Shown here: positions 106-24,580 of the stretch, piece by piece
How positions within the stretch are numbered: the first letter of the stretch is position 1
Layout: every line of letters begins with the position of its first letter
Assembly (NCBI GenBank): GCA_041660045.1
Contig: JBAZXA010000003.1
Span: forward strand, 226,320 to 290,319
Length of the DNA stretch: 64,000 nucleotides
Direction: 5' to 3'
Source of the DNA: Methylococcaceae bacterium
Lineage (GTDB): Bacteria; Pseudomonadota; Gammaproteobacteria; Methylococcales; Methylomonadaceae
Notes under the pieces: model-generated
The model's input: only the letters and a program-made list of their open reading frames with translations
What the model was told of the DNA's origin: nothing
Database searches by the model: none
Position numbers and translations under genes: made by a program

Positions 106-237
106 TTTATTAATCCTCAAGATATTATTTTTTTAAAATCGCATTTGGCTAAATAACAGGCACTAAAAAAGCCAAATAGTCAAACACGTTTGCCATCTTA
201 TCACATTTTAAAATTTACTAATAAACTTAGGGTTAAA

Positions 238-1259: not shown

Positions 1260-1263
1260 TAGC

Positions 1264-1839: not shown

Positions 1840-2268
1840 TGTTTTCCCCAAAATATGATGCTTATAAAAGTATAGGCAATGTTCTGTATCCAATACTGTT
1901 AATAACAATTAAATAAATATCTTTTTAAAAACTTATTATTATTAGTCTTTTAAAATTCCGTGTATAAGTCATTTATTAATAATTATTTCAATAACTTATA
2001 CTACATTATAAACTGCTAAACCTAGCCTTTAAAAGCTGTGTTTGCTTTGTGGATAAAACGGCATGTGTTATTCAAACACCTTTAATACACAGCTTATCCC
2101 GTTGTAATTAACAATTTATGCTATGTTGCCTTAGCACTTATCTGTACTAAAATAGGGAACCTTTTTTTATAAACGTTGTTTTTACAGTAATAATCACTTT
2201 TCTATGCGCAGGTCTATTTTTAGCTTGATAGGCTGGTTACTCATGATGGATAAAAACATAACAGGATC

Positions 2269-3252: not shown

Positions 3253-4175
3253 TGTTATTTGATAGTGTTAGCCAACAAAACAAAATAGAAACTCAAGATC
3301 GGGTTGCTATACGCTTAAAAACGTTAATTGCTTTAGCCCAAATAGCCAGTAACTTAAATTTACGCCAGTCTAAAATCAATGCCCAAGAAGGTGGTGCCTA
3401 TGTTTCTCGCTTGAAAGGACGAGGCATGGAATTTGACGAAGCCCGTTTATATCAACCTGGTGATGATATCCGAAGCATAGATTGGAAAGTGACTGCGCGT
3501 AGTGGTAAAACCCATACTAAGCTTTTTCGTGAAGAACGTGAAAAACCTGTTTTTATTTCAGTGGATTACCGTTTAAACATGCACTTTGCCACGCGAGGTG
3601 TTTTCAAATCGGTACTGGCTGCTAAGTTAGCGGGACTTTTAGCATGGGGAGCCCAATATCAAGGTGATAGAATAGGCGGGCAAATATTTTCTGATTTTGA
3701 ATGCACAGAATTAAAACCCCAAAATGGTAAGCATGCGGTCTTGCGTTTTTTAAATGCCTTGGTGAAGGCACAAGCGTCAACAGGCAGCCCGATTAGTTTT
3801 GAGCATGTGTTAGCTAGATTAGTGCAACACACCAGACCTGGTAGCCAAATTTACATCATTAGTGATTTTCGTGGGATTAACCCTAAAGCAGAACTTTTTT
3901 TAGCCCGCATCGCGCAGCACTGTCAGGTTAATCTGCTTATGGTATATGATCCCTTAGAGCAAGCTTTACCCACCCAAGGCCGTTACCGATTTACCGATAC
4001 CATGCGTGATGTTGTGGTGGATGCCGCTGATCAAAAAAAATTATCAGATTATCATCAACGCTTTGTAAAGCATCAACAAACTGTGCAAACATTAGCAAAA
4101 AAATTAGGTTTAGGTTTTATAGAATGTAGCACGATTGATGATCCACTGATGTGTTTGCAATTTCGTTACCGATAA
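3252..4175 (+). CDS. DUF58 domain protein (MoxR-associated, vWA-like)
   Basis: The RLKGRGMEFDEARLYQPGDDIRSIDWKVTAR motif is characteristic of DUF58. The start overlaps the moxR stop (TAATG). Confidence 0.85.
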   Translation: MLFDSVSQQNKIETQDRVAIRLKTLIALAQIASNLNLRQSKINAQEGGAYVSRLKGRGMEFDEARLYQPGDDIRSIDWKVTARSGKTHTKLFREEREKPVFISVDYRLNMHFATRGVFKSVLAAKLAGLLAWGAQYQGDRIGGQIFSDFECTELKPQNGKHAVLRFLNALVKAQASTGSPISFEHVLARLVQHTRPGSQIYIISDFRGINPKAELFLARIAQHCQVNLLMVYDPLEQALPTQGRYRFTDTMRDVVVDAADQKKLSDYHQRFVKHQQTVQTLAKKLGLGFIECSTIDDPLMCLQFRYR

Positions 4176-4181
4176 GTTGTT

Positions 4182-4667
4182 ATGGATGACGCCGCCACTT
4201 TAGCTTTAAAAGATATTCATTTACCGGGTGCAAATAGCTGGTTTCCAGAATTGATACGTTGGTGGCCACCGGCTATAGGCTGGTGGTTACTGCTGATTTT
4301 AGTGATTTTTATAATTTGGATTTTAAAACGTTTAACCCGTAAAACAGCAATAAAATCCGCAAAAGCAATATTAGTGGCAATTCAGCTAAATAAGGCGATG
4401 AGCACTTCGCAAAAATTGGCTGAATTATGTGTATTGATTAGGCGAGTCGCCATGCATGTTTCGCCAAGACAGCAAGTGGCCAGTTTAACCGGCGCAGCTT
4501 GGTTAGCCTATTTAGATAATTCAGTCAAACATGCACCTTTTAGCACAGGCATAGGCCAATATTTAGGCGATGCACATTATCAACCTAGTCAGATTAGCGA
4601 TGCAGAATTAGGTCAATTATTTGGCCTTTGCGAAACCTGGTTAAAAGCCCAAAACAAACACATATGA
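4182..4667 (+). CDS. DUF4381-like membrane protein of Bat operon
   Basis: One TM helix (WWLLLILVIFIIWIL), at the canonical position between the DUF58 and BatA genes. Confidence 0.6.
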   Translation: MDDAATLALKDIHLPGANSWFPELIRWWPPAIGWWLLLILVIFIIWILKRLTRKTAIKSAKAILVAIQLNKAMSTSQKLAELCVLIRRVAMHVSPRQQVASLTGAAWLAYLDNSVKHAPFSTGIGQYLGDAHYQPSQISDAELGQLFGLCETWLKAQNKHI

Positions 4668-5644
4668 TTCATTTTGAATGGATTTGGCTATTGTTGGCTT
4701 TACCCTTACCGTTATTTAGTCGCTTCTTATTACCAACCGAGATACCTGTAGAACAAGCGGCTTTAAAAGTCCCGTTTTTGGAAGACTTTAGCGGTGGTGA
4801 AAGCCATCTAGTTAGCCAAAAACAACAATGGCCTATGTTGTTGGCGGTTATCGCATGGATATTACTGGTGCTTGCCTGTGCAAGGCCTCAATGGTTAGGG
4901 GATCCCATAGAACAAGCGGTCAGCGGCCGAGATTTAATGTTGGCCGTTGACTTATCAGGCAGTATGGATGCCCAAGATTTTATGATTAATCAAGATACCG
5001 TTGATAGGTTAACAGCAACTAAATGGGTGGCAGGTGATTTTATTAATCGCCGAGTTGGTGACCGTATCGGCTTAATCTTATTCGGCAGCCAAGCCTATTT
5101 ACAAACCCCGCTAACGTTTGACCGGAAAACAGTGAACACCCTGTTATATGAATCGGCCATCGGTTTAGCAGGTGATAATACCGCTATAGGTGATGCCATC
5201 GGTTTAGCGGTCAAGCGCTTACAAAGCCAAACGACGGACAGCAAAGTTTTAATTTTAATGACTGATGGTGCTAATACAGCCGGTGAAGTGTCGCCATTAA
5301 AAGCGGCTGAATTAGCCGCTGAAAACCATTTAAAGATTTACACTATTGGGATAGGGGCTGATGAAATGATGGTACGCAGCTTTTTTGGTTCACACAAAGT
5401 CAACCCCTCACAAGATTTGGACGAAAAAACCCTAACCCAAATTGCAGAAAAAACCGGTGGTGTTTATTTTAGGGCGAGAAATTCGGAAGAATTAAATAAA
5501 ATTTACCATTTGCTGGATGAAATGGAACCAGTAGAGAAAGACAAACAATATTTTCGGCCCACGCAAGAACTCTATTATTGGCCTTTAGCGATTTCGATAA
5601 CACTGTTTGCGATTATTATCTTATCCCGCTTAGGTAGTTCATGA
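4664..5644 (+). CDS. batA: VWA-domain membrane protein, BatA-like
   Basis: N-terminal TM helices, a VWA MIDAS motif (DLSGSM) and a C-terminal TM. The ATG at 4664 overlaps the upstream stop (ATGA). Confidence 0.8.
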   Translation: MIHFEWIWLLLALPLPLFSRFLLPTEIPVEQAALKVPFLEDFSGGESHLVSQKQQWPMLLAVIAWILLVLACARPQWLGDPIEQAVSGRDLMLAVDLSGSMDAQDFMINQDTVDRLTATKWVAGDFINRRVGDRIGLILFGSQAYLQTPLTFDRKTVNTLLYESAIGLAGDNTAIGDAIGLAVKRLQSQTTDSKVLILMTDGANTAGEVSPLKAAELAAENHLKIYTIGIGADEMMVRSFFGSHKVNPSQDLDEKTLTQIAEKTGGVYFRARNSEELNKIYHLLDEMEPVEKDKQYFRPTQELYYWPLAISITLFAIIILSRLGSS

Positions 5645-7479
5645 ATCCAGAGTTTCATTTTATACGGCCACTCTGGTTACTGGCATTAATCCCTTATGCC
5701 ATTCTTATCGTGTTGTCTTTAAAGCACAAACTTAAACAAGGCAATTGGTCTGTTATCTGTGATGCCGAACTATTACCCTTTTTATTAGAAACTCAACCCG
5801 TGTTAGCCAAACGCTGGCAATTAACACTAGGGGCGATTGCCGCTTTATTCACCATCTTTGCGTTAGCAGGGCCAACCTGGCAGCGCTTGCCAGCACCGGT
5901 ATTTCGCAATGATTCAGCTTTAGTGATTGCTTTAGATTTATCGTTGTCAATGAACGCGACGGATATTAAACCAAGTCGTTTGATCCGTGCCCGTTACAAA
6001 ATAGCAGATATCTTAACCCATCGAAAAGAAGGTCAATCAGCATTACTTGTCTATGCAGGAGATGCTTTTACGGTGACGCCATTAACTGATGATAAGCAAA
6101 CAATTATCAGCCAATTAGAAGCTTTAAACACCAATATTATGCCTAACCAAGGCAATAATACGATACAAGCTTTAGCAAAAGCCACTGATTTGCTTAAACA
6201 AGCGGCTTTACAAAAAGGCACTATCTTGCTGGTAACCGATGGCGTAGATTTGAACGCTACCTTACCTGCCATTAAAGCGTTAGCAGATTACCGTTTATCA
6301 GTATTGGCTGTAGGCACGGAAGATGGCGCGCCGATAGCCGCAGGCGCTGGCGGTTTTGTTAAAGATGACAACGGTGAAATAGTTATACCCAGGCTTAATG
6401 TTAAAGAACTTAAACAAGTCGCACTCGAAGGGCATGGTGATTTTCAATTACTTAGCAGTAATGACCAAGATGTGCAAAACATCTTAGCCAGTATTGATAC
6501 ATCTAGCTCCCGTCAAGGTCAGGAGAAAAAAGACCTGTTATTGGAACAATGGGATGACAAAGGGCCTTGGCTATTATTGTTGGTTTTACCATTAGCAGCG
6601 CTATTGTTTAGAAGAGGTTTGATTATTTTTTTAGGTTTAATCGTGTTGCCTTGGCCCCAACCTAGCCAGGCTTTGACGTGGGACGATTTATGGCAAACCA
6701 AAAATCAACAGGCGTATCAGGCCTTTAAAAAAGGCGATTATCCTGTTGCTGCGGAAAAATTTGAAAACCCAGATTGGAAAGCTGCTGCGCAATACAAGGC
6801 GGGACAGTTTAAAGAGGCTTTGGAAAACTTACAAACGCCAAATAGCGCAGACAGCTACTATAATCAAGGTAATGCCTTGGCAAAAGCCGGCCAATTACCT
6901 GAGGCCATTAAAGCATATGAACAAGCGTTGGCACTAAAGCCCAATGATGAAGATGCCAAATACAACAAAGAATTGGTTGAAAAAGCGTTAGAAAAACAAC
7001 AACAAGAAGCAAATAAAGAGCAAAACAAAGACAATAAACAAGCTAATAAGAAGGATCAAGAATCACAGGATTCTAAAGACAAAGGGCAACAGCAGCAAGC
7101 ACAAAACGGCGAAAAAACCGATTCGGCAGATCAACAAGGGCAATCTGGAGAATCTGACCAGCAACCTAAGGCTTCGGAACAACAGCCATCACAAGACCAA
7201 AACAATCAGCAGCATCAACAAACCCAAACTGAACCCAGCCAAGCCCAACAAAAGCCTACTGCTGATCAAGCTGCCGAACAGGCACAAGAAACTCAAGGTG
7301 AGCAAAGCAAGGCAAAACCAACGTTAACTGAACAAGAAAGCCATGATGAAAATCAACAAGCCAACCAACAATGGTTAAACCGTATTCCAGATAATCCGGC
7401 AGGCCTGTTAAAACGTAAGTTTTTATATCAATACAGCCAACAAGAAAGGCAAAAGTCAGGAAAGCCTAAGCAGTGGTAA
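5641..7479 (+). CDS. batB: VWA + TPR fusion protein, BatB/BatC-like, with Q/K/E-rich low-complexity tail
   Basis: MIDAS motif DLSLSM, a TPR segment (YYNQGNALAKAGQLPEAIKAYEQALALKPNDEDAKYN), a Q-rich tail from about 6950 to 7330, and the conserved end QQWLNRIPDNPAGLLKRKF. Confidence 0.8.
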   Translation: MNPEFHFIRPLWLLALIPYAILIVLSLKHKLKQGNWSVICDAELLPFLLETQPVLAKRWQLTLGAIAALFTIFALAGPTWQRLPAPVFRNDSALVIALDLSLSMNATDIKPSRLIRARYKIADILTHRKEGQSALLVYAGDAFTVTPLTDDKQTIISQLEALNTNIMPNQGNNTIQALAKATDLLKQAALQKGTILLVTDGVDLNATLPAIKALADYRLSVLAVGTEDGAPIAAGAGGFVKDDNGEIVIPRLNVKELKQVALEGHGDFQLLSSNDQDVQNILASIDTSSSRQGQEKKDLLLEQWDDKGPWLLLLVLPLAALLFRRGLIIFLGLIVLPWPQPSQALTWDDLWQTKNQQAYQAFKKGDYPVAAEKFENPDWKAAAQYKAGQFKEALENLQTPNSADSYYNQGNALAKAGQLPEAIKAYEQALALKPNDEDAKYNKELVEKALEKQQQEANKEQNKDNKQANKKDQESQDSKDKGQQQQAQNGEKTDSADQQGQSGESDQQPKASEQQPSQDQNNQQHQQTQTEPSQAQQKPTADQAAEQAQETQGEQSKAKPTLTEQESHDENQQANQQWLNRIPDNPAGLLKRKFLYQYSQQERQKSGKPKQW

Positions 7480-7562
7480 CTTTTTGTATGGGTATATAGC
7501 CATGGGCCATACATATAGTAAAGAATTGAAGCAGTTTTTTAAAACTTTATAGTTAGGTTGAT

Positions 7563-8303
7563 ATGATAAAAAACGCTGACACCCTTAGAAAGTTATTACG
7601 GTATTGGTTCCGTCCATTGAGGACAACACCACTACATCCCCAATGGTTGGTATCACTGTTAGGAAAAAAAAGAGGAGCTTGGATTTCCCAACGGGCCAAA
7701 GGGCAAGTCCTTGATGTTGGTTGTGCCGATTGTTCCATCCACTTATTGCTGACTTGTGAAAGTTATATTGGAATTGATTTTCCAACAACGGCTAATAATT
7801 TGTATGGTACAAAACCTAATGTTTTTGCAAATGCCAGTCACTTACCCTTTGTTGACTCCTGCTTTGATAGTGTGCTCATGTTGGATGTTTTAGAACACCT
7901 AGCTGAGCCAGAATTGGCCTTGCATGAGGCATTTAGGTCACTGCGTAGTGGTGGTATACTTTTATTAACCATACCTTTTGCTTATCCGTTACATGATCAA
8001 CCCTATGACTATCAACGGTATACTGAGCATGGAATAGCTCAGCGGTTAAAACAAGCTGGTTTTTGCAAAATTATTGTAGAGGAGCAAGGTTTAGCGATAC
8101 AGGCGGCTACCAGCCTACTTGTGCTAACACTTACGCAAGCGTGCATTGAAGCAATCGCGCAAAAAAGTTGGCGGGTATTTTTTGTACCCTTGATAGTATT
8201 ATCACTACCTTTTATTAATGTATTTGGCTGGCTTATTTCCACTTTATACCCAGTTCATCACTTAATGCCTAGCGCTTATTATGTACAAGCGCAGCGAGGC
8301 TAA
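7563..8303 (+). CDS. class I SAM-dependent methyltransferase with hydrophobic C-terminus
   Basis: Motif I VLDVGCADC and the Methyltransf_11-like LMLDVLEHL segment. The C-terminus has predicted TM helices. Confidence 0.7.
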   Translation: MIKNADTLRKLLRYWFRPLRTTPLHPQWLVSLLGKKRGAWISQRAKGQVLDVGCADCSIHLLLTCESYIGIDFPTTANNLYGTKPNVFANASHLPFVDSCFDSVLMLDVLEHLAEPELALHEAFRSLRSGGILLLTIPFAYPLHDQPYDYQRYTEHGIAQRLKQAGFCKIIVEEQGLAIQAATSLLVLTLTQACIEAIAQKSWRVFFVPLIVLSLPFINVFGWLISTLYPVHHLMPSAYYVQAQRG

Positions 8304-8350
8304 GTAGCCATAATTTACCGTTTACGCTATAAATTAAATAAAATAAAAAA

Positions 8351-8378
8351 AGCCCACATAGCTTGATAGATATGTGGG
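8351..8378. terminator. bidirectional rho-independent terminator between convergent genes
   Basis: Perfect 9-bp stem GCCCACATA / TATGTGGGC, with an A-run on the 5' side and a T-run on the 3' side. Confidence 0.75.
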
Positions 8379-8475
8379 CTTTTTATTTAAGGCTTAACCA
8401 AACGAGTTGGTTAAGCCACAGATGAACTCAGTTTAAATACGCAACTAGTTATTACGTAATAAACTAACTCATGTT

Positions 8476-10059
8476 TTAGTCATCATGGTCATCATTATCG
8501 TAGTTGTCTTCATTACGATTTTTTAAAGGTTTAAAGGCATGTCCGTATACATAGTTACCAACGTTATTACCTTGGGTAATACCACTTGTTTTATCAAATA
8601 CCCAATGGATACCTAGATAAATACGGCTTTGACCATTTTCTTCCTCAGCTTGTGACAATGTGGAGAAACTTCTTGGTTTTAAAGGACGTACATTACCACT
8701 GCGATCTTTGTTAACACCATTAAACTCATCCGATACAAAGGTAAAAGGAATATTGTCAGTGCCGTAGAAGTTACGCAAGGTTTGGAACAATGCGCCACCA
8801 AATGTAGCATGACCTGATGGGTATGCTGGGAAAGGTGGAGTAAAGTTAGGGCCTGTTAAGTTTGTAGCTTGGCCGCCTAATGGTGAGAAAGCAACATCTG
8901 GTGCAGTGTTAGCGTTGCCGTCTGTATCGCCTTCACGGATACCACCAATTGGGCGCCAGTATTGGTAATACCATTTTGAATCCCAGCTAGCAATACCCGC
9001 ATCTGCTAATGATGTGTTGACTAAAGCTAAGAGTCTAGCCAATTTAAGGGCGTTGTTAGTACCTTTAACCTTAGAGATTTTAATGGCAATTTGGTTATAC
9101 AATCTTGGTGGTGCGCATAGGCTAGGGACACCGTCATAAGCCCAGAATATGCCAGCTTCCGTTTGATCTTGGTTACGGATAGTTGGTGTAGAAATACCAT
9201 CACCGCCTAGTGCTTTAACTTCATTATAAGCTGCAGTATATTCTGCACTGTTTAATGCTGGTGGTGGTGGTAAACGGAATTGGCTGCCTGATGTCATTAC
9301 AAAAGGTTGTACTTCACCCCAATGGACACCTAAAGCGATAGGAACTAAACTGATAGGGTCTTGTCTCCAATAACCTGGGGCTGGGTTGGTAACAAAAGTA
9401 CCGCCAGCTGTACTTAGTCTTTCTTCAGTAATTGCGGATTGGTCATTAATACGTAAAGCTAAAATGCTGGTAGCTGCCAATTTACCTAATTCAATACCAC
9501 GTTTTTTTTGCTTAGTATTTGGGATTTGACCTAAATCTAATGCCAATTGGGTATCAAATGTTGCAGTTTGTGAAGGGTATAAGGTAACTAAAGCATCATG
9601 GGCGGCTTGTGCGATGGCGGCTCTTCTGCTAGTTGCTTGCTTAACTGGTGTTAAACCAGAATAGCTTTCATATTTGTTGTCGATGGCGTTTAAGGCATCA
9701 AACATAGCAATATGGATAATACCCATAGCACGGCTGGCGCGGGTGGGGCCTAATTGTTCGCCGAAAATACGGGAATCGCCTGGTGCTACAGGAGTATGGT
9801 CTAAACCAGTGGCATCTAATGCTATACGGTTCCAGTTTCGCAAGTAATTTGTTGGTGAATTGGCAACGCGGCCAGTTTTAACATAGGCTTTTTCGAAATT
9901 GTCGTAGAATTGTGATTCGGTATCAAAATGATTACCAAGAGCTTCTTTTGCGCCGCCTTCGAAACCTTTAAATTCTTTAGACCATGCCGGTGCCGTTGCG
10001 CACAAGCTACTAACGGCTACGGCTAAAACAGCCAGCCGTTGAAACAGTTTAACTTTCAT
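8476..10059 (-). CDS. secreted PAP2-superfamily / vanadium-dependent haloperoxidase-like protein (paralogue A)
   Basis: Signal peptide MKVKLFQRLAVLAVAVSSLCATAPAWS. All three family motifs are present: KWYYQYWRP (K-x6-RP), PAYPSGHATFGG and SRIYLGIHWVFD. Confidence 0.8.
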   Translation of the reverse strand: MKVKLFQRLAVLAVAVSSLCATAPAWSKEFKGFEGGAKEALGNHFDTESQFYDNFEKAYVKTGRVANSPTNYLRNWNRIALDATGLDHTPVAPGDSRIFGEQLGPTRASRAMGIIHIAMFDALNAIDNKYESYSGLTPVKQATSRRAAIAQAAHDALVTLYPSQTATFDTQLALDLGQIPNTKQKKRGIELGKLAATSILALRINDQSAITEERLSTAGGTFVTNPAPGYWRQDPISLVPIALGVHWGEVQPFVMTSGSQFRLPPPPALNSAEYTAAYNEVKALGGDGISTPTIRNQDQTEAGIFWAYDGVPSLCAPPRLYNQIAIKISKVKGTNNALKLARLLALVNTSLADAGIASWDSKWYYQYWRPIGGIREGDTDGNANTAPDVAFSPLGGQATNLTGPNFTPPFPAYPSGHATFGGALFQTLRNFYGTDNIPFTFVSDEFNGVNKDRSGNVRPLKPRSFSTLSQAEEENGQSRIYLGIHWVFDKTSGITQGNNVGNYVYGHAFKPLKNRNEDNYDNDDHDD

Positions 10060-10540
10060 GGGGGTACCTCTATAGTTTAAAAAAATGGAAATACAGCAGT
10101 TTTAAATATTCAAGCTTGGGGGAGGTTAATACCCCTGCACTGTGTTTATCTTTACCCATAAATCAACAAGCAGATTATCTAGAACTAGTGAATGTTAAGT
10201 CCTCACTGAATGGATACCGATGGATGAACAGGTGGTGTTAAATTATCACTAAAAAATCACTAAATCAATACAATATTTCACTATAAAATCATGAAATTAT
10301 AATTAAATTTGACACATTTTTGACATGTTTCTGTGGATAAAACTTAGTAAATCATATTTATCATGTATTTAATTTTCAATTTACATTTTGTATTAAGTTT
10401 ATTTGTTTCTAATTAGAAACATTTGTAATGAGCAGTTGTAATTATATTGGGATATTTAACGGATAAACATTTGTGATGTGCATTTATTTACTGAATGCGA
10501 GTCGGTTAACAATTATATTGACGTTTTTTTTAGTAAAAAA

Positions 10541-10567
10541 ACCGCATAGTGTTTATACCTATGCGGT
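10541..10567 (-). terminator. rho-independent terminator downstream of paralogue B
   Basis: Stem ACCGCATAG / CTATGCGGT. On the minus strand it is followed by a T-run (plus-strand AAAAAAA at 10534-10540). Confidence 0.7.
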
Positions 10568-10602
10568 TTTTGATTAAAACATTAGTTCAAGAAAGTCACT
10601 GA

Positions 10603-12186
10603 TTATTCATCATGGTCGTTGTTGTCGTAATTGTCTTCATTACGATTATTTAAAGGTCTGAAAGCATGGCTGTAAACGTAGTTGGCTACGTTATTTCCCT
10701 GGGTAATTCCACCTACTTTGTCAGAGTTCCAATGGATGCCTAAGTAAATTCTACTTTGTCCATTTTCTTCCTCAGCGTCTGACAATGAGGTGAAGCTGCG
10801 TGGTTTCAGGGGTCGTATTTTGCCACTGTTGTCTTTATTTACGCCATTGAACTCGTCTGATACAAAGGAAAAGCTTATGTTGTCAGTACCGTAGAAGTTG
10901 CGTAACATTTGGAACAGAGACCCTCCAAAAGTTGCATGTCCTGATGGATATGCAGGGAATGGCGGGGTAAAATTCGGCCCGGTTAAATTTGTGGCTTGCC
11001 CACCTAATGGGGAAAAATTTGTATCTACAGGTGTGTTTGGGTTGCCGTCTGTATCAGCCCCACGGATACCACCAATTGGTCGCCAACGTTGGTAATACCA
11101 TTTTGAATCCCAACTAGCTATACCAGCATCGGCCATGGAAGTGTTGACTAATGCTAATAATCTAGCCAGTTTCAATGCATTATTGGTGTGTTGAACGCTT
11201 GCAATCTTAACAGCTACTTGATTATACAACCGTGGTGGCGCACACAAGCTAGGCACACCATCATAAGCCCAAAAGATACCGGCTTCTGTTTCATCTTGGG
11301 TACGGATGGTTGGGGTGGTTATGCCATCACCGCCCAAAGCCTTTACTTCATTATAAGCCGTTGTGTACTGAACTGAGTTCAGCTCAGGTGGTGGCGGCAA
11401 GCGAAATTGATTACCTGATGTCATAACAAAAGGTTGTACTTCGCCCCAATGCACACCTAATGCAATGGGTGCACGGCTAATAGGGTCTTGACGCCAAAAA
11501 CCAGGAGCTGGATTAGTGACAAATGTGCCACCTTCTGTGCTAAGCCTTGGTTCTGGTATAGCCGATTGGTCGTTTGCACGTAAGGACAATATTGTGCTGG
11601 CAGACAATTTTCCCAGTTCAATACCGCGTGTTTTTTGTTTGCTGTAAGGGATCTGATGTAAATCCAAGGCCAATTGAGTATCAAAAGTTTTGGTTTGTGA
11701 CGGGTACAAGGCTACAAGGGTGTCGTGCGCAGCCTGGGCAATTGCCGCTCTTCTACTAGTGGCTTTTTTGGCAGGATACAATCCGGTATAGCTTTCATAT
11801 TTATTGTCTATAGCGTTTAAAGCATCAAACATGGCGATATGAACAATACCCATGGCACGGCTAGCACGAGTAGGGCCAAATTGTTCGCCGAAAATACGTG
11901 TTTCGCCAGGTGCTACTGGGGTATGGTCCAAGCCAGTCGCATCAATTGCAATTCGATTCCAATTTCGTAAGTAATTGGTTGGTGTATTTTTAACAGCGCC
12001 AGTTCTCACATAGGAGTTTTCATGATTTCCGTAGAAACCAGATTCAGTATCTATATGGTTACCTAATGCCTCTTTAGCACCGCCTTCAAAGCCTTTAAAT
12101 TCTTTAGACCAAGCAGTTGAAGTTATGGCTAAGCCACTGACAGCAACAGCCAAAATGGCTAATCGCTGTAAAAGTTTAACTTTCAT
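10603..12186 (-). CDS. secreted PAP2-superfamily / vanadium-dependent haloperoxidase-like protein (paralogue B)
   Basis: 527 aa and collinear with 8476-10059. Motifs KWYYQRWRP, PAYPSGHATFGG and SRIYLGIHWNSD, plus a signal peptide. Confidence 0.8.
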   Translation of the reverse strand: MKVKLLQRLAILAVAVSGLAITSTAWSKEFKGFEGGAKEALGNHIDTESGFYGNHENSYVRTGAVKNTPTNYLRNWNRIAIDATGLDHTPVAPGETRIFGEQFGPTRASRAMGIVHIAMFDALNAIDNKYESYTGLYPAKKATSRRAAIAQAAHDTLVALYPSQTKTFDTQLALDLHQIPYSKQKTRGIELGKLSASTILSLRANDQSAIPEPRLSTEGGTFVTNPAPGFWRQDPISRAPIALGVHWGEVQPFVMTSGNQFRLPPPPELNSVQYTTAYNEVKALGGDGITTPTIRTQDETEAGIFWAYDGVPSLCAPPRLYNQVAVKIASVQHTNNALKLARLLALVNTSMADAGIASWDSKWYYQRWRPIGGIRGADTDGNPNTPVDTNFSPLGGQATNLTGPNFTPPFPAYPSGHATFGGSLFQMLRNFYGTDNISFSFVSDEFNGVNKDNSGKIRPLKPRSFTSLSDAEEENGQSRIYLGIHWNSDKVGGITQGNNVANYVYSHAFRPLNNRNEDNYDNNDHDE

Positions 12187-12834
12187 GGAGTGTTCCTTAT
12201 TAAGTTTTAGAAATATGTCGGATTTAAATATTCAGGCCTAACGGTTGTGAACAAGTTTGCCTTAATATTAATTAATATTTGCTAACTATTTAACTAAGTG
12301 GCTGTATAAGAGAGCAAATTCCCTGTTGCCTACGTTTAGGTTGTAGGTGTTCAGGTGGCAATAAAGTATCACGCAAATATCACTAGAACAACTCAAAATA
12401 GTACGTAATATTTCACACAATTTATTCGTGACTTCGCGTATATTTTATGAGATTGTTTGAAAATTTTTTTCTTAAAAACAATTTATTAGTTTATGTATTC
12501 TATAAAGAAATAAATAATAAACTGGGTTAGGCACAATTTATGGGTATGTAATATTTCGTGATATTCAGGCAAATAATAGGGGGTATTAGTATTAAATTTA
12601 TCACAATAGCTAACCTAGTTTGGCTGCTTTCTAGTGTTCAATTTGAGGGTAGTAGAATTTAGACAAAATGACAAAGAGGCTATACGCAGGGGTGATTGCC
12701 TACGGTTTGTAACGGTAACGGCCTATTCGGCTAAAGATACAATTTTTAGTAACAAGGTAATATGATCTTCGGCTTCTAGAGGCCGAAAATGTCCGGTCTG
12801 TTTAAGGCATAGGTATATTTATCTAGCATAGAGA

Positions 12835-13530
12835 TTAGCGGTAATTAATAGATAATATTCCTGATAAAACTTCTTGGCGGTTGTTGTATTGCATTTGAAT
12901 GCCAAAACCTAGGCTAGTATCGTGCGATAGGCTATAAAAAAATTGGTAATTAGAGCCGCTAATATTATTGGTGCCACTAAGAAAATCGTATTGAAGTTTC
13001 CAGCGATTATTGATGGGCACTATTAAATTGCCACTGATACCCACAGAGTTATAACCTGCAAACCATTGATTGGCGTAATAAGCACCTAAACCTAGGTTTA
13101 TATTGTAGATTAGCGTACTGCCTGTAATATAGTTGTAGCTGTTTATGCCATTACCAACATTTTTTGCAGTTAATGCCCAGCCTATATTTGTACCGGCTAA
13201 AATAGAGAACCTGGGATGCAGAGTAATACTTTTTTCCACATTAATTAATACGGGAATACTGTAATCTTGAAAGCTGTCCAGGGGAAAATTAAAAACGCCT
13301 AAGCCTATATCCCAATTATCAGTTAAACCAAAATCAAACGTCGTGGTGGCTAAGGCAACCGGTACGTCGGCATAAAAATTAAAATCCTCATGCACCGATA
13401 AGACATTTTCCAATGTATCTGTGATGTCCGGCAGATTAATATGCGCTTTTCGTTTAGTTTGTGCCTGTGCTGTTTGCCCAACGCCCCAGATTAAAAAACC
13501 AAGAAAAAATAGACTGCGCGGTATAGACAT
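12835..13530 (-). CDS. putative outer-membrane beta-barrel protein
   Basis: Signal peptide ending AQAQ, then alternating hydrophobic/polar strands rich in G, N and Y. I recognised no named family. Confidence 0.5.
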   Translation of the reverse strand: MSIPRSLFFLGFLIWGVGQTAQAQTKRKAHINLPDITDTLENVLSVHEDFNFYADVPVALATTTFDFGLTDNWDIGLGVFNFPLDSFQDYSIPVLINVEKSITLHPRFSILAGTNIGWALTAKNVGNGINSYNYITGSTLIYNINLGLGAYYANQWFAGYNSVGISGNLIVPINNRWKLQYDFLSGTNNISGSNYQFFYSLSHDTSLGFGIQMQYNNRQEVLSGILSINYR

Positions 13531-13783
13531 TAAGCCTCAATGTTTTAGGGCTGTGTTTGTTAATTTCAGTTGGCCTAGTTAATAGCTATTCGTTTGCCTT
13601 GTAAAGCATATCAGGCCAAATTAACAAATATTGATAGGGTAAAATAAGCTGTAGGCGCTTTGATGCTATTGTTTACTGCCTGATACGCAAAAACCTGTGT
13701 GGTGTTTACGCCCAAGCAGTAAAGCTGGATAGAACCCGCACCCTAAATACTAAGGTGTGGTGGGTAGCAAATATCAATTTCAG

Positions 13784-15445
13784 TTAGGCGTTAGTAGGGT
13801 CTGCAAATTTAAGCAAATTCCTAAAAATAACAGTCTTGTCACCGCCAAGCATAGGCTCCCAAGTTTCAGGGGCGGCATTAACATAGGATTGCATATCGGC
13901 ATCTAGTAAGCCATAAAACACTTCGGCGACAATACGTCCGCCAACCCAACCTAGCTGAGTTTTTGCGCCTATACCTGTAAGCATTTTCGTTTCATTAAAG
14001 TCTTTGTCACCAAAATGTTCAACCAAAGGTGCTTGCGCTTCCGCAAGAATATAAAACCAAAGCGGGGTGTCTTCGACCAGTTCAGGTTCTATGGGCAAAA
14101 ACTTAAAATCCCCACTTTTCTCACTGGGTTGGCGGATTACCATATGCTTTTTTTGTAAGATTTTACAAGGCAGCCCTTTTTCTATGAGTACGTTTGCAAT
14201 GGCCTGGCCACCTTGTATAAGGTAAGTATTTCCGCGTAAAAGATTAAGTAGGGCTAAAGATGGGCGTGGCGGTTCACCAACTTTATCTGGCAGGGTTTCC
14301 GGTGCAATGGCGGCGGCTGCTTGTTGCGTCGTTTGTTCCCCTGCAACCTCCTTGCGTGGCAAAACCGCTAATGGGTCTACTAGGGTTGGATCGAGCTTAT
14401 AAGCAAATTGCAGGCGGACATTGCCATCTGGGGTTCTATCTGCTGCTTGGCTTCGGTCTTCTTGAGGTTCAAAATTAATATCATGGGCTTGGTCTGGGAA
14501 AAACCTCCCCCAATGGTCTATCACTTGAGTACTGGGTACAGGGTCAAAACCTAGGAGGCTTTCTGAACCTGCCAAATCTGTTGGATCTCCGCTGGCTGGA
14601 AAAATATCAAAGCGATTTGTCGGCACATAATTCATGCGGTAGCCGGTTCTAACACCTGAATGGCCGAAACGGTAAGCCGCGGCAACAAATTCACGCGGTA
14701 GATTTCCGCGTTTATCTTCAGTGTATAAGGCATAACAACAAGCCCTATCATTAGGTTTTTTTGCTTGCAAATTGCTGAGTACAGCAGCTGAAATAATTCG
14801 AGGAAGAAAGTCTTCGGTGATGAGTTTTTGGTAACACCAGCGCACTTCATTTTGGGCCGATTCAAAAAGTTTGTTGGGGGTATTCCAGTCTTCTGGACTT
14901 AAGGTTTTAAGCTGATCAACAACAGCATTGTGATATTTAATAAAGGCCAAATGGATTTGGCTGACGATAGAGTTTTCATCATTACGTTTATCTCCGATGA
15001 TTGCTCTTCCTAACGGGTTTCTGAGCAGGTCTTTTTCTGCAACGTTTGTTGGCTCCCCAGGTAAATGGCCGTTTTTATAAAGCAATTTTACACCATCATA
15101 CATATAGGGTTGTGCGTCTGGGCCATCACCATATAGGCAATCTAAGTCTAGCCTGGGTGTTCTAAGATTAGTAGGTTGTGGGCCTCCTTTGCTAGAGTTT
15201 AGCGTAGAGGTGCTATCAAATGTTAAGTCATGATCGATAAATTGGCCAAAGTATGTATATCCGGCCGGGACTAATATATTTTCTTCTGGATCAGGGCCAT
15301 CTTTTACGGTATCTGCCTCACCTTTCATTGCCTGAGCAAGTCTGGCTAGGGCACGTGGGTTATAGGGATGTTTTCTGAGGGGTAATAATGCTGTGAAAGA
15401 TGCTTCATGTTTACCAACTGTACCATGGCCTAGCTCATTCATCAT
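13784..15445 (-). CDS. haem peroxidase of the peroxidase-cyclooxygenase (animal haem peroxidase) superfamily
   Basis: FGQFIDHDLT (distal His), GDKRNDENS and AAYRFGHS (proximal His). No obvious signal peptide. Confidence 0.8.
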   Translation of the reverse strand: MMNELGHGTVGKHEASFTALLPLRKHPYNPRALARLAQAMKGEADTVKDGPDPEENILVPAGYTYFGQFIDHDLTFDSTSTLNSSKGGPQPTNLRTPRLDLDCLYGDGPDAQPYMYDGVKLLYKNGHLPGEPTNVAEKDLLRNPLGRAIIGDKRNDENSIVSQIHLAFIKYHNAVVDQLKTLSPEDWNTPNKLFESAQNEVRWCYQKLITEDFLPRIISAAVLSNLQAKKPNDRACCYALYTEDKRGNLPREFVAAAYRFGHSGVRTGYRMNYVPTNRFDIFPASGDPTDLAGSESLLGFDPVPSTQVIDHWGRFFPDQAHDINFEPQEDRSQAADRTPDGNVRLQFAYKLDPTLVDPLAVLPRKEVAGEQTTQQAAAAIAPETLPDKVGEPPRPSLALLNLLRGNTYLIQGGQAIANVLIEKGLPCKILQKKHMVIRQPSEKSGDFKFLPIEPELVEDTPLWFYILAEAQAPLVEHFGDKDFNETKMLTGIGAKTQLGWVGGRIVAEVFYGLLDADMQSYVNAAPETWEPMLGGDKTVIFRNLLKFADPTNA

Positions 15446-16241
15446 TTTCTCCTGGTTTAGGTAATTTCAATTGTGGTTGTTTATGAGTTGTTTTTTTGGT
15501 ATTCAACGCCAGCATATCCAATACCTTATTTTGGTATGGAGTATTAATTAACTGAAAATATTAAAAAACTATGCTAAACAAAGGCCACTATTGTGGATTA
15601 CACCACAGAACTTTGTAGACTTATGAACTTCGTTAAAGCATTAAGCGCTGGAATTTTAGGTTTTATGGCGTCAAACGAGCCACTATGGTTTTTGCTAAGG
15701 GGATAAAGGGTTTAAACAAAAATACTTGTCCCCAACTTTATAACCTTTGCTAATCAAGTACTTGTTAATAAAATTATTTTAATTGTTACCAACGGTAAAG
15801 CGTTGATCGCGTGAACAGCTTACTTTCCGCCAAAATGACAGCTGGATGAGATTAGCTAGGGGCATAAACCAAGTTTTAAAAGAGACTGATTAGCACAGCC
15901 GCGGTTTAAAAACCACGTGCGCGTAAGGCACTAAAAAATCGTGAAAATTTCGTAATAATTTAGTGAATAATTACAAAAAAATCAAAATTTATTTTGGGGA
16001 AGGCTTTTATGAATATTATTTTGTATTTGTTTGTTAAAGCAATGCCCAATTTTTTGTCATAAAGGGTCGGCATTCCAAGGCTAAATTCAGCAAAGCATGA
16101 TTGGGGAATGCCTTAATAATGTCAAACATTTAACAAAACGACAGCGTTTTTTATTCCAGATACTGGCACTAATATGAGTGCTTAGGCCAGTGCAAATTTT
16201 TAGTTTTTGAACTTAATGCTGAACAATTTAGGGTGCTTAAA

Positions 16242-16684: not shown

Positions 16685-16873
16685 ATGGAAACTAATACTG
16701 CCCGTTTAACTTTGTTGATCGACCCAGAAAAAAAACGGCAATTCGAGCAGATTTGCACCGCCCAGGATTTAACATCGTCTCAAGTAGTGCGCAAAATGAT
16801 CAGGGATTACATTGACCAGCATTCTGATTTAATTGACCTAAAAAAATTGGCAGAAGAACGCATTGACAGTTGA
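16685..16873 (+). CDS. ribbon-helix-helix (CopG/Arc-type) protein, antitoxin-like
   Basis: ARLTLLIDPEKKRQFEQICTAQDLTSSQVVRKMIRDYI shows the beta-strand/helix/helix pattern. The stop overlaps the start of the downstream GNAT reading frame. Confidence 0.55.
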   Translation: METNTARLTLLIDPEKKRQFEQICTAQDLTSSQVVRKMIRDYIDQHSDLIDLKKLAEERIDS

Positions 16874-17402: not shown

Positions 17403-18998
17403 ATGAATAAATCTGCTCTGCCCACACTTGAACAAACTGGTTTGGCTAGCTTAAAAGAGAACTGGAAAGCGGACTTACGGTCTGGTTTTCTGGTGTTTTT
17501 AATTGCTTTACCGTTAAGCCTTGGGGTTGCTATCGCTGCTGGCTTTCCGCCGTCGGCAGGCCTTATTTCCGCTATAGTCGGGGGTTTATTGGTGTCACGG
17601 ATTAGCGGCTCACACCTAACAATTAACGGCCCGGCTGCAGGATTAATAGTTGTTATATTAGCAGCCGTGCAAGCCTTGGGCGAAGGCGATGCCTTGGCTG
17701 GATACGGCTATACCTTGGCGGCAATTGTTGTCTCCGGTGCTTTACAAATAGTGATGGGGAAATTTAAGGCAGGCCAGTTAAGTGCCTTTTTCCCCGCATC
17801 CGTGGTGCATGGCATGTTAGCTGCGATTGGTCTGATCATCATTGCCACCCAAAGCCATGTTATGTTGGGTGTCACACCAGATTCCAGCAGCCTGTTTTCG
17901 ACTATCTTACAAATTCCGCATAGTGTGCTTAACATTGAGCCGGAAATTTTTCTTATCAGCTTTTTAAGCTTATTGATACTGGTTATTTGGCCGCTAGTCG
18001 GAAGCAACGTTCCAGCACCTATCATTGTAGTGCTGGTGGGTATGTTGTTCGCGTGGCATTTTGATTTGGGTCACGTTAGGGCTGCTAACGGATCGAAATT
18101 CCTGGTGTCGATTTCCGATAATTTTTCGGCCGACTTTTACTTCCCTGACTTCTCCAAATTTTTCACCGTCGCCTTTTGGGAAGCAGTTGTCAGTATCAGT
18201 TTGGTGGGCAGCCTGGAAACATTGTTGAGTGCTACAGCAGTTGATAAATTGGATCCTTATAAACGCACTTGTGATCTTGACCGTGATTTAAGCGCAGTGG
18301 GGATCGGCAATATGGTGGCTGGTTTTATAGGTGGCTTTCCCATGATTGCTGAAATTGTCCGTAGCTCAGAGAATGTTAATAATGGGGCAAAAACTAACTG
18401 GGCGAATTTTTTTCATGGCGTCTGTTTGTTACTGTTTTTAGTCTTGTTTCCAGGATTGATCCAGAGCATCCCCTTGGCTTCATTAGCGGCGGTATTAGTT
18501 GTTACCGGCTATCGTTTGGCTTCGCCCAAAGTATTTGCCAGGGTCATGGATGTTGGCAAAGAACAGTTGTTAATGTTTGTGGTCACCATTATCGGCGTGT
18601 TGGCGGTCGATTTATTGGCAGGCGTCGCCCTGGGCATAGTGGTAAAGCTGGCTATTAACCTTAAGCGGGGCGTTTGGCTTAGCAATTTGTTTAAGATTCA
18701 TTTTACCGTTCGGCAACCCGATAATAATACATTGCTGATCACGTTGTCCGGTTCGGCATTGTTTTCAAACTTCTTGCCGTTAAAAAATGCGCTTGCAGGC
18801 CTTGAACCCGGCAAAACGATTATTTTTGATTTTACAGACGGTTACCTAATCGATCATACCGTTATGGAATTTATCCACGATTTTAGTCTGGACTATGAAG
18901 CTCAGGGCGGACATTGTCAGACTATAGGTAAAGCGTTGGCAACCTCTTCTGATCACGCGCTAGCTGCACGCTTAATGACAGCGGATGATAGGCAATGA
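17403..18998 (+). CDS. SulP-family inorganic anion transporter with C-terminal STAS domain
   Basis: 531 aa with multiple TM helices. The N-terminus (DLRSGFLVFLIALPLSLGVAIAAGFPP) and the cytoplasmic STAS-like tail are typical of SulP. Confidence 0.85.
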   Translation: MNKSALPTLEQTGLASLKENWKADLRSGFLVFLIALPLSLGVAIAAGFPPSAGLISAIVGGLLVSRISGSHLTINGPAAGLIVVILAAVQALGEGDALAGYGYTLAAIVVSGALQIVMGKFKAGQLSAFFPASVVHGMLAAIGLIIIATQSHVMLGVTPDSSSLFSTILQIPHSVLNIEPEIFLISFLSLLILVIWPLVGSNVPAPIIVVLVGMLFAWHFDLGHVRAANGSKFLVSISDNFSADFYFPDFSKFFTVAFWEAVVSISLVGSLETLLSATAVDKLDPYKRTCDLDRDLSAVGIGNMVAGFIGGFPMIAEIVRSSENVNNGAKTNWANFFHGVCLLLFLVLFPGLIQSIPLASLAAVLVVTGYRLASPKVFARVMDVGKEQLLMFVVTIIGVLAVDLLAGVALGIVVKLAINLKRGVWLSNLFKIHFTVRQPDNNTLLITLSGSALFSNFLPLKNALAGLEPGKTIIFDFTDGYLIDHTVMEFIHDFSLDYEAQGGHCQTIGKALATSSDHALAARLMTADDRQ

Positions 18999-23423: not shown

Positions 23424-23463
23424 AAGCCCTTTCCTTATACGAGCGTGCCAGAAAATTTAATCA

Positions 23464-24579: not shown

Positions 24580-24580
24580 G

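What the first reader, a model, noticed from the sequence alone, without database searches (positions are those of the whole stretch)
8476..15445. Co-oriented cluster of three peroxide-using (halo)peroxidase-type genes plus an outer-membrane barrel gene
SEEN: four consecutive minus-strand genes. (1) 13784-15445 (553 aa, no signal peptide) carries FGQFIDHDLT, GDKRNDENS and AAYRFGHS. These are the distal-His, Ca-site-region and proximal-His signatures of the peroxidase-cyclooxygenase (animal haem peroxidase) superfamily. (2) 12835-13530 is a 231-aa signal-peptide protein with barrel-like alternating strands. (3, 4) 10603-12186 and 8476-10059 are signal-peptide proteins with all three PAP2/vanadium-haloperoxidase motifs (K-x6-RP, PAYPSGHAT, SRIYLGIHWxxD). 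A SulP-family anion transporter lies 2 kb further upstream (17403-18998). ESTABLISHED: members of both enzyme families oxidise halides or pseudohalides with H2O2. INFERENCE: this may be an envelope-directed hypohalite/iodine-generating, halogenating or peroxide-scavenging module. I know of no described system that combines these families. The long AT-rich spacers suggest individually regulated promoters rather than a single operon.
Basis: partly seen in the sequence, partly recalled or inferred. Interest (0 to 1): 0.7.

Follow-up and report, generated by a model that had tools for sequence, protein, structure and literature searches.

The report
Peroxidase genes adjacent, not a system
A methanotroph genome carries a haem peroxidase gene, a small outer-membrane pore gene and two vanadium-haloperoxidase-type genes in a row, but related genomes do not keep them together, so this looks like a local neighbourhood of separately expressed genes and not a new multi-enzyme system.

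Summary
Four co-oriented minus-strand ORFs lie at exactly the stated coordinates, in a Methylococcaceae MAG.

- **Haem peroxidase (POX), 553 aa:** it belongs to the peroxidase-cyclooxygenase superfamily. It has a complete, family-invariant catalytic set and no signal peptide.
- **Barrel, 231 aa:** it models confidently as a 12-stranded barrel resembling KdgM/NanC porins. It belongs to a small family with no annotation.
- **Two 527-aa proteins:** these are exported enzymes of the Curvularia vanadium chloroperoxidase type. Every vanadate-site and halide-pocket residue is invariant. They are old tandem duplicates under strong purifying selection.

The proposed combined "module" is not supported.
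- Of about 90 peroxidase-family contexts, only one other, in an unrelated high-GC lineage, has a VHPO gene nearby.
- Three VHPO contexts and seven barrel contexts elsewhere lack the other partners.
- Each VHPO gene ends in its own intrinsic terminator.
- A conserved upstream element is found only before the two VHPO genes.
- The peroxidase is predicted cytoplasmic and the VHPOs periplasmic.

Most likely these are independent peroxide-consuming genes placed side by side in this lineage. Each is a new member of a known kind. Interest is modest.

The parts
13784..15445 (-). POX: 553-aa haem peroxidase of the peroxidase-cyclooxygenase superfamily, a short bacterial form predicted to be cytoplasmic
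   Evidence: Pfam PF03098, E = 2.7e-22. AlphaFold model pTM 0.84; Foldseek top hits are the DUOX peroxidase domain, cyanobacterial peroxidase 8s6c, MPO, LPO and DdPoxA. Q68, D71, H72, D73, R154, E157 and H262 are invariant in 33 homologues. No hydrophobic N-terminus.
12835..13530 (-). 231-aa outer-membrane 12-stranded beta-barrel with a signal peptide, structurally like KdgM/NanC porins; the family has no annotation
   Evidence: AlphaFold pLDDT 87.6 with 12 strands. Foldseek hits: VhGalP TM 0.66/0.72, KdgM, NanC. No Pfam match and no PDB sequence hit. Only 51 representative clusters in 1.84 billion proteins.
10603..12186 (-). VHPO_A: 527-aa exported vanadium-haloperoxidase-type protein of the Curvularia VCPO type
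   Evidence: PDB 1idq, E = 7e-46. Pfam PAP2 and VCPO_N above cut-off, plus a sub-threshold VCPO_2nd match. The equivalents of CiVCPO D292, W350, K353, R360, F397, S402, G403, H404, R490 and H496 are all present and invariant in 32 homologues. Signal peptide MKVKLLQRLAILAVAVSGLAITSTAWS.
8476..10059 (-). VHPO_B: tandem paralogue of VHPO_A (83.5% aa identity)
   Evidence: Same domains and same active-site residues as VHPO_A. dN/dS = 0.047 with saturated dS, so the duplication is old and both copies are under purifying selection.
12210..12237 (-). Conserved 28-nt element 24-51 nt upstream of the VHPO_A start codon; probable promoter or operator
   Evidence: One of only two matches in the window, against 0 expected by chance.
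10088..10115 (-). Second copy of the 28-nt element, 29-56 nt upstream of the VHPO_B start codon
   Evidence: The rest of the two spacers has diverged.
10537..10571 (-). Intrinsic terminator just after the VHPO_A stop codon (AAAAACCGCAUAGG...CUAUGCGGUUUUUUU)
   Evidence: Fold z-score -3.6; 0 of 200 shuffles fold as well.
8344..8385 (-). Hairpin plus T-run after VHPO_B (AGCCCACATA...TATGTGGGCT TTTTTTT), lying between VHPO_B and the convergent methyltransferase gene
   Evidence: Read directly from the sequence. The region immediately upstream of it also folds strongly, z = -6.3.

Best explanation
The four genes are separate transcription units that happen to lie side by side in this Methylococcaceae genome. 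They are not parts of one conserved machine.

**The two 527-aa proteins.** They are exported by the Sec pathway to the periplasm. There they most likely bind vanadate at the conserved Lys/Arg/Ser-Gly-His/Arg/His site and use H2O2 to oxidise a halide to hypohalous acid, as the Curvularia chloroperoxidase does. They belong to a Methylococcales-specific expansion of a very large bacterial family, with at least three copies in this MAG.

**The 553-aa protein.** It is a cytoplasmic haem peroxidase. It keeps the distal Gln/Asp/His, the catalytic Arg, the ester-forming Glu and the proximal His. It is therefore expected to bind haem, possibly covalently, and to reduce H2O2 while oxidising a small substrate that may be a (pseudo)halide.

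**The 231-aa protein.** It is a small monomeric 12-stranded outer-membrane channel for an unknown small solute.

**What is shown and what is inferred.**
- Shown: gene identities, residue conservation, predicted folds, terminators, and the lack of a conserved neighbourhood.
- Inferred: cofactors, substrates, compartments, and any physiological role such as peroxide detoxification or antagonism.
For: **Identities.**

**No conserved linkage.**
- 0 of 80 named-genome peroxidase loci carry a VHPO, barrel or close SulP gene within 10 kb.
- Contexts of close relatives in Variovorax, Nostoc, P0011, P0002 and P0020 lack VHPO.
- VHPO contexts L086, L094 and L095 lack a peroxidase and a barrel.
- Seven barrel loci lack both and have varied neighbours.
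- Clustering the neighbours of 86 peroxidase loci gives no recurrent partner. The largest cluster covers 11 loci and is, to judge from its representative's N-terminal sequence, a large kinase-like signalling protein that was not profiled.

**Separate transcription.** Terminators follow VHPO_A and VHPO_B. The upstream element is restricted to the two VHPO genes.

**Different compartments.** Signal peptides are present on the VHPOs and the barrel only.

**Different histories.**
- The VHPOs cluster with Methylobacter and Methylomonas proteins.
- The peroxidase's nearest non-self relatives, at 70-71% identity, come from a 56% GC lineage (L001 and L084). The nearest named relatives, at about 65%, are Comamonadaceae such as Variovorax.
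Against: - The four genes are co-oriented and contiguous, and all but the barrel use peroxide.
- One independent lineage (L001, 56% GC) also has a VHPO gene 2-4 kb from its peroxidase gene, there in an apparent operon with a di-haem DHOR gene. Some selection for proximity therefore cannot be excluded.
- No canonical terminator was found between the peroxidase and barrel genes, which are 253 nt apart, so these two could be co-transcribed.
- No expression or biochemical data exist.
Confidence: 0.7

Rival explanations
1. One reading: the four genes, perhaps with the SulP transporter, form a functional peroxide/halide module. The porin and SulP would move halide or another anion, the periplasmic VHPOs would make hypohalite from H2O2, and the haem peroxidase would act on the same oxidant pool.
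For: - The genes are contiguous, co-oriented and share a chemistry theme.
- An independent VHPO-peroxidase proximity occurs in L001, with a di-haem DHOR gene.
- DHOR is also next to the peroxidase in L084 and 5 kb away in L037.
- The closest barrel homologue (L087) also has a SulP gene 2 kb away.
- The porins that the barrel resembles structurally carry acidic solutes.
Against: - Linkage is absent in about 90 other peroxidase contexts, 3 VHPO contexts and 7 barrel contexts.
- The window was selected because of the adjacency, so only L001 counts as independent support.
- The VHPO genes have separate terminators and a private upstream element.
- The peroxidase has no export signal.
- SulP is divergent, 2 kb away, and separated from the peroxidase by an RHH gene.
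Confidence: 0.15
2. The 527-aa proteins are ordinary PAP2 acid phosphatases that bind phosphate at the shared site, and are not vanadium haloperoxidases.
For: - The K-x6-RP / PSGH / SR-x5-H motif set is shared by PAP2 phosphatases and VHPOs.
- NCBI names the protein 'phosphatase PAP2 family protein'.
- Apo-VCPO is known to have weak phosphatase activity (my own knowledge).
Against: - Full-length similarity to Curvularia VCPO at E = 7e-46, against E > 0.6 for acid phosphatases.
- The VCPO-specific N-terminal helical domain matches above the Pfam cut-off.
- The non-phosphatase residues of the VCPO halide pocket and acid-base set (W350, F397, D292) are invariant in 32 homologues.
- Published trees place a proteobacterial group as sister to the fungal VCPOs, away from the acid phosphatases (PMC10427571).
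Confidence: 0.1
3. The haem protein is not a peroxidase in vivo but a fatty-acid dioxygenase or cyclooxygenase-like enzyme, or a Mn(II) oxidase like MopA.
For: - The superfamily includes such enzymes.
- Alpha-dioxygenase is the second-best profile hit among solved structures.
- MopA-type Mn oxidases are bacterial members of the superfamily (PMC6247904).
Against: - It carries the G-Q-x-x-D-H-D and R-x-x-E signatures, which PMC4420034 says are typical of the superfamily except families 4 (cyclooxygenases) and 7 (dual oxidases).
- The Tyr in AAYRFGH sits four residues before the proximal His. It aligns with a Cys in the cyanobacterial peroxidase 8s6c (ACYRVGH). By my own recollection of the MPO and cyclooxygenase sequences, it falls at the Phe position of MPO and not at the catalytic Tyr of cyclooxygenases.
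- It is short, has a single domain and is not secreted, unlike MopA.
Confidence: 0.07

Closest known systems
Curvularia inaequalis vanadium chloroperoxidase (PDB 1idq/1vnc) and the 'Proteobacteria vHPO group' of Cochereau et al. 2023 (PMC10427571)
   Same: - Two-domain helical architecture.
- All vanadate ligands (K353, R360, S402, G403, H404, R490, H496).
- Halide-pocket residues W350 and F397, and D292.
- E = 7e-46 to the solved enzyme.
   Different: - Bacterial, with a Sec signal peptide, so predicted periplasmic.
- About 80 residues shorter, lacking several fungal insertions.
- A clade-specific acidic C-terminal tail.
- Tandemly duplicated.
- I found no biochemically characterised member of this bacterial clade, so halide specificity is unknown.
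Bacterial members of the peroxidase-cyclooxygenase superfamily: short peroxicins (Family 5) and the peroxidockerin-type cyanobacterial peroxidases LspPOX and 8s6c (Family 6) (PMC4420034)
   Same: - Single haem-peroxidase domain of about 550 aa.
- G-Q-x-x-D-H-D and R-x-x-E signatures.
- Proximal His in the Y-R-x-G-H motif.
- Found in cyanobacteria and proteobacteria.
   Different: - Very divergent from the solved members: profile E = 1e-5 to 8s6c and 15-17% identity in structural alignments.
- The Pfam model covers only residues 91-271.
- Placement in Family 5 or Family 6 was not tested.
[quoted passage not shown]
KdgM/NanC family of 12-stranded monomeric outer-membrane porins (VhGalP 8xua, KdgM 4pr7, NanC 2wjr)
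   Same: - Size of about 205 mature residues.
- 12 antiparallel strands.
- TM-scores of 0.6-0.8 to these structures.
   Different: - No sequence similarity: no Pfam hit, and a family profile finds no porin in the PDB.
- It has its own conserved N-terminal N-L-P-D motif.
- Substrate unknown.
- Not found next to sugar-acid utilisation genes.

Membership tests
Peroxidase-cyclooxygenase superfamily (Pfam An_peroxidase PF03098) | Profile match above the curated threshold | tested here: met
   79.5 bits against a cut-off of 25, although only residues 91-271 are covered.
Peroxidase-cyclooxygenase superfamily (Pfam An_peroxidase PF03098) | Distal signature G-Q-x-x-D-H-D (halide-binding Gln, ester Asp, catalytic His, Ca-binding Asp) | tested here: met
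   G67-Q68-F-I-D71-H72-D73, invariant in 33 homologues. It aligns with GQFLDHD of 8s6c. Signature as defined in PMC4420034.
Peroxidase-cyclooxygenase superfamily (Pfam An_peroxidase PF03098) | R-x-x-E motif (catalytic Arg and second ester-bond Glu) | tested here: met
   R154-N-D-E157, invariant. It aligns with GDVRSNE of 8s6c and GDTRSTE of eosinophil peroxidase.
Peroxidase-cyclooxygenase superfamily (Pfam An_peroxidase PF03098) | Proximal His ligand, hydrogen-bonded to an Asn | tested here: inconclusive
   H262 is invariant and aligns with the proximal His of 8s6c (YRVGH).
Peroxidase-cyclooxygenase superfamily (Pfam An_peroxidase PF03098) | Mainly alpha-helical peroxidase fold | tested here: met
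   Model pTM 0.84. Foldseek probability 1.0 to DUOX, 8s6c, MPO, LPO and DdPoxA, with TM-scores of 0.4-0.5.
Peroxidase-cyclooxygenase superfamily (Pfam An_peroxidase PF03098) | Haem binding and peroxidase or halide-oxidising activity | not testable with these tools
   Needs purified protein.
Family 5 'short peroxicins' (Zamocky classification) | Phylogenetic placement with the reference short peroxicins | not tested
Size, taxa and lack of extra domains fit.
Vanadium-dependent haloperoxidase, Curvularia VCPO type | Vanadate-binding set: Lys353, Arg360, Ser402, Gly403, His404, Arg490 and the covalent ligand His496 | tested here: met
   K362, R369, S415, G416, H417, R479 and H485 in both paralogues. 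All are invariant in 32 homologues.
Vanadium-dependent haloperoxidase, Curvularia VCPO type | Halide pocket and second sphere: Trp350, Phe397, Asp292 | tested here: met
   W359, F410 and D309 are present and invariant. The roles assigned to these residues rest on my knowledge of the CiVCPO structures.
Vanadium-dependent haloperoxidase, Curvularia VCPO type | Two helical-bundle domains (VCPO_N plus the PAP2/VCPO_2nd core) | tested here: met
   VCPO_N scores 29.9 and 35.6 bits against a cut-off of 29.3. PAP2 scores 32.8 and 30.9 bits against 27.2. Precomputed domains in homologues agree.
Vanadium-dependent haloperoxidase, Curvularia VCPO type | Vanadate-dependent oxidation of halide by H2O2 | not testable with these tools
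   Needs an enzyme assay. I found no characterised member of this bacterial clade.
KdgM/NanC porin family | 12-stranded monomeric barrel | tested here: met
   12 strands, pLDDT 87.6. Best Foldseek matches are VhGalP, NanC and KdgM.
KdgM/NanC porin family | Sequence-family membership (Pfam KdgM model or similarity to the solved porins) | tested here: not met
   No Pfam hit for the protein, and none for 31 of its relatives apart from one weak TonB-barrel hit. A family profile finds no porin in the PDB.
A conserved multi-gene system (peroxidase + barrel + VHPO) | Gene-neighbourhood conservation across related genomes | tested here: not met
   Only 1 (L001) of about 90 other peroxidase contexts has a VHPO gene nearby. 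None of 3 VHPO contexts and none of 7 barrel contexts has a partner.
A conserved multi-gene system (peroxidase + barrel + VHPO) | Co-transcription or a shared regulatory signal | tested here: not met
   Intrinsic terminators follow VHPO_A and VHPO_B. The 28-nt upstream element occurs only before the VHPO genes. The peroxidase-barrel junction remains unresolved.

The most novel reading that the evidence does not exclude
The adjacency is selected and not accidental. It would be a lineage-specific, layered peroxide/halide defence in a methanotroph, with these roles:
- duplicated periplasmic vanadium haloperoxidases turn H2O2 and halide into hypohalite;
- the unannotated 12-stranded porin admits the anionic substrate;
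- a cytoplasmic haem peroxidase covers the inner compartment.

The independent juxtaposition of peroxidase, di-haem DHOR and VHPO genes in an unrelated high-GC lineage (L001) would be a second instance of the same logic.
Probability: 0.12. Interest if true: 0.6.

Novelty: new member of a known kind. Interest (0 to 1): 0.3.

Why it matters
If the 527-aa proteins are active, they would be periplasmic, chloroperoxidase-type vanadium enzymes in methane-oxidising bacteria. They belong to a very large, biochemically untested bacterial family spread through soil and freshwater phyla. That bears on who makes reactive halogen species and organohalogens in the environment.

The haem peroxidase belongs to a widespread bacterial clade whose role is openly described as unknown. 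The barrel defines a small outer-membrane protein family with no annotation.

None of this needs the three to work together, and the comparative evidence says they generally do not. The finding is therefore a useful set of annotation leads and not a new system.

Tried and rejected
1. Exact look-up of the 553-aa product found nothing, because the deposited protein starts at the second Met (552 aa, P0001).
2. A metagenome scan with the single peroxidase protein found no relatives. The barrel alignment A2 was too divergent to make search patterns. The reduced alignment A3 gave only 6 loci.
3. The context of the third VHPO paralogue, P0124, was not retrievable.
4. NCBIfam has no model for any of the four proteins.
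5. Rfam found nothing in the whole window, so there is no riboswitch or sRNA in the long spacers.
6. The consensus sigma-70 promoter scan gave fewer hits than shuffled sequence and was uninformative. The scan also missed the VHPO_A terminator because its loop is 9 nt.
7. Synteny between the window and L087, L086, L001 and L084 is limited to the individual homologous genes.
8. Codon composition gives no sign that the four genes were recently acquired relative to their left flank.
9. Literature searches found no paper describing a cluster that combines the two enzyme families, and none describing VHPOs in methanotrophs.
10. I considered a lipoprotein signal on VHPO_B (SSLC), but it does not fit a lipobox.

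Full report
**1. Observation**

All quoted motifs are present. The exact proteins occur in an NCBI MAG labelled Methylococcaceae bacterium, on a 381-kb contig. The SulP gene at 17403-18998 is real (Pfam Sulfate_transp, E = 6e-60). It is on the opposite strand, and a 62-aa RHH_9 gene lies in the 2-kb gap.

**2. The haem peroxidase (POX)**

- **Family.** It matches Pfam An_peroxidase at 79.5 bits against a cut-off of 25, over residues 91-271 only.
- **Distance from solved members.** Sequence similarity to solved structures is weak. The best hit is the cyanobacterial peroxidase 8s6c, at E = 7e-5 with the single sequence and E = 1e-5 with a family profile. This is a divergent branch.
- **Fold.** An AlphaFold model built on 33 homologues (pLDDT 75.8, pTM 0.84) matches the DUOX peroxidase domain, 8s6c, myeloperoxidase, lactoperoxidase and Dictyostelium PoxA at Foldseek probability 1.0.
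- **Signatures.** Zamocky et al. (PMC4420034) define the diagnostic signatures, and both are present.
  - G-Q-x-x-D-H-D carries the halide-binding Gln, the ester-bond Asp, the distal His and the Ca-binding Asp.
  - R-x-x-E carries the catalytic Arg and the second ester-bond Glu.
  - These residues (Q68, D71, H72, D73, R154, E157), like the proximal H262, are invariant in the 33 homologues.
GDKRNDENS is the R-x-x-E motif, not the Ca site.
- **Localisation.** The N-terminus is not hydrophobic (maximum 12-residue Kyte-Doolittle score 0.47, against 2.2-2.6 for the other three proteins). It is also conserved across the family. The protein is therefore predicted to be cytoplasmic.
- **Distribution.** Thousands of relatives exist in Comamonadaceae, Nostocales and many soil phyla.
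- **Classification.** Size, taxa and single-domain form fit the "short peroxicins". The same review says their physiological role is "completely unknown". I did not test that placement.

**3. The two 527-aa proteins (VHPO_A and VHPO_B)**

- **Family.**
  - Both match PAP2 and VCPO_N above the Pfam cut-offs.
  - VHPO_A, used as the query, matches Curvularia inaequalis vanadium chloroperoxidase at E = 7e-46. Bacterial VHPOs of other types score E = 5e-15 or worse, and acid phosphatases score E > 0.6.
- **Active site.** Mapping that alignment onto CiVCPO numbering gives D292, W350, K353, R360, F397, S402, G403, H404, R490 and H496 as D309, W359, K362, R369, F410, S415, G416, H417, R479 and H485. 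All ten are present in both paralogues and invariant in 32 homologues from many phyla.
- **Haloperoxidase or phosphatase.** The vanadate ligands are shared with PAP2 phosphatases. The halide-pocket Trp and Phe, the Asp and the N-terminal domain are not. This is a VCPO-type protein and not an ordinary acid phosphatase.
- **Localisation.** Both have Sec-type signal peptides ending in AWS|KE.
- **Duplication.**
  - The paralogues are 83.5% identical in protein and 75.8% in DNA. dN/dS is 0.047 and dS is saturated. The duplication is old and both copies are constrained.
  - The MAG has a third paralogue on another contig.
  - A Methylobacter MAG has two copies on one 4.2-kb contig.
  - The Methylococcales copies form one clade.
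- **Literature.** A published tree already shows a proteobacterial vHPO group as sister to the fungal CiVCPO group with 100% bootstrap support (PMC10427571). I found no biochemical work on that bacterial group.

**4. The 231-aa protein (barrel)**

- It has no Pfam or NCBIfam hit.
- An exhaustive HMMER search finds only 51 representative clusters. They share an N-L-P-D motif just after the signal peptide.
- The model is confident (pLDDT 87.6) and has 12 strands.
- The best structural matches are the 12-stranded monomeric porins VhGalP, NanC and KdgM, with TM-scores up to 0.81 when normalised to the target.
- A family profile finds no porin in the PDB by sequence. The protein therefore resembles a KdgM-type porin in structure but is not a demonstrated family member.

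**5. Is it one system?**

*Neighbourhood tests*

- **Peroxidase side, distant relatives.** 80 loci from named genomes (34-66% identity, up to 10 kb of flank each side) contain no VHPO, no barrel and no close SulP gene. 70 of the 86 peroxidase loci examined have at least 6 kb of flank within ±5 kb.
- **Peroxidase side, closest relatives.**

| Context | Identity to POX | What is nearby |
|---|---|---|
| L001 | 70% | An apparent DHOR-VHPO operon, divergent from the peroxidase gene |
| L084 | 71% | DHOR only |
| P0011 | 67% | Neither |
| Variovorax | 65% | Neither |
| P0020 (one synteny seen in five places) | 67% | Neither |

- **How independent is L001?** L001 and L084 have 56% GC against 42% for the window, and L001's VHPO lies outside the Methylococcales clade. 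That juxtaposition is therefore independent. It is still one case in about ninety, and the window itself was chosen because of the adjacency.
- **VHPO side.** The Methylomonas gene has TamAB and K-channel genes upstream; it sits at a contig end, so its downstream side is unknown. The Manganitrophus homologue and one other are singletons in unrelated contexts.
- **Barrel side.** Seven loci carry neither partner, and their neighbours vary.
- **Neighbour clustering.** Clustering all peroxidase neighbours shows no recurrent partner.

*Evidence within the window*

- VHPO_A is followed by a textbook intrinsic terminator (z = -3.6).
- VHPO_B is followed by strong hairpins, including one with a T-run.
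- The two upstream spacers have diverged except for a 28-nt element 24-56 nt before each start codon. That element occurs nowhere else in the window.
- The peroxidase-barrel gap (253 nt) has no clear terminator, so co-transcription of those two genes remains possible.
- GC3 of all four genes matches the left flank.

**6. Most likely mechanism**

I read the region as a juxtaposition of independently expressed genes.
- The VHPO pair would bind vanadate in the periplasm and convert H2O2 plus halide into hypohalous acid, thereby consuming peroxide. This is inferred from residue conservation.
- The peroxidase would bind haem in the cytoplasm, possibly covalently through D71 and E157, and reduce H2O2 with an unknown electron donor. 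This too is inferred.
- The barrel is a small-solute channel.
- A shared theme of peroxide stress is plausible, but nothing tested here shows it.

**7. Comparison and novelty**

Each enzyme is a new member of a known kind. The barrel is a structurally ordinary but unannotated small outer-membrane protein family. No published system combines the two peroxidase families. My comparative data indicate that none exists as a conserved entity.

**8. Verdict**

Interest is 0.3. The residual novel reading, a selected and layered peroxide/halide defence, has a probability of about 0.12.

Noticed in passing
window 30244-36315: The chromosomal origin gene set is here on the minus strand: dnaA (35002-36315), dnaN (33785-34885), recF (32701-33774) and gyrB (30244-32658). 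The cluster therefore lies about 20 kb from the likely replication origin.
   Followed up: partly
window 19129-29291: A type I restriction-modification island: hsdR at 19129-22230, hsdS at 24581-25792 and hsdM at 27702-29291. It is interrupted by two DUF1016/YhcG PDDEXK nuclease genes (22227-23078 and 25773-26825), an AAA_13 ATPase gene (23464-24579) and a Fic gene (26828-27433).
   Followed up: partly
window 16685-16873 (+): An orphan 62-aa ribbon-helix-helix gene (Pfam RHH_9, E = 2e-21) in the otherwise ORF-poor 2-kb gap between the peroxidase and SulP genes. No partner toxin gene is evident.
   Followed up: partly
window 10088-10115 and 12210-12237 (-): A 28-nt element (GCYTGAATATTTAAAWCYGNNRTATTTC) is conserved upstream of both VHPO paralogues although the rest of the spacers has diverged. 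It is a candidate promoter or operator for an unknown regulator.
   Followed up: partly
L001 6278-11662; L084 3571-7254; L037 8215-9498: A di-haem DHOR gene (PF06537, a putative peroxidase) lies next to peroxidase homologues in L001 and L084 and 5 kb away in L037. In L001 it appears to form an operon with a VHPO gene. This may be a more recurrent pairing than peroxidase with VHPO.
   Followed up: partly
window 12835-13530; L087-L093: The barrel belongs to a small outer-membrane protein family of about 51 representative clusters, with no Pfam model and a conserved N-L-P-D motif after the signal peptide. Its closest homologue (L087) also has a SulP gene, fused to carbonic anhydrase, 2 kb away.
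   Followed up: partly
window 8476-8520 and 10603-10647 (C-termini of the VHPOs): The Methylococcales VHPO clade ends in a strongly acidic tail (NRNEDNYDNDDHDD and NRNEDNYDNNDHDE; similar in the Methylobacter protein P0123). The wider family lacks it. Its function is unknown.
   Followed up: no
window 1-16000 versus 17000-64000: Genes in the first 16 kb have lower GC3 (0.28-0.39) than most genes to the right (0.38-0.63). The four genes of interest match their left flank (MoxR/Bat operon and methyltransferase).
   Followed up: no
L096-L100, about 85 bp downstream of the peroxidase gene: In the P0020 lineage the peroxidase gene is always followed closely by a 666-aa gene with no Pfam match, and then by a pentapeptide-repeat protein gene. 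In several Bacteroidota loci (L040, L041, L044, L060) and one Gammaproteobacteria MAG locus (L059) a roughly 470-aa protein recurs near the peroxidase gene; it was not profiled and its function is unknown.
   Followed up: no
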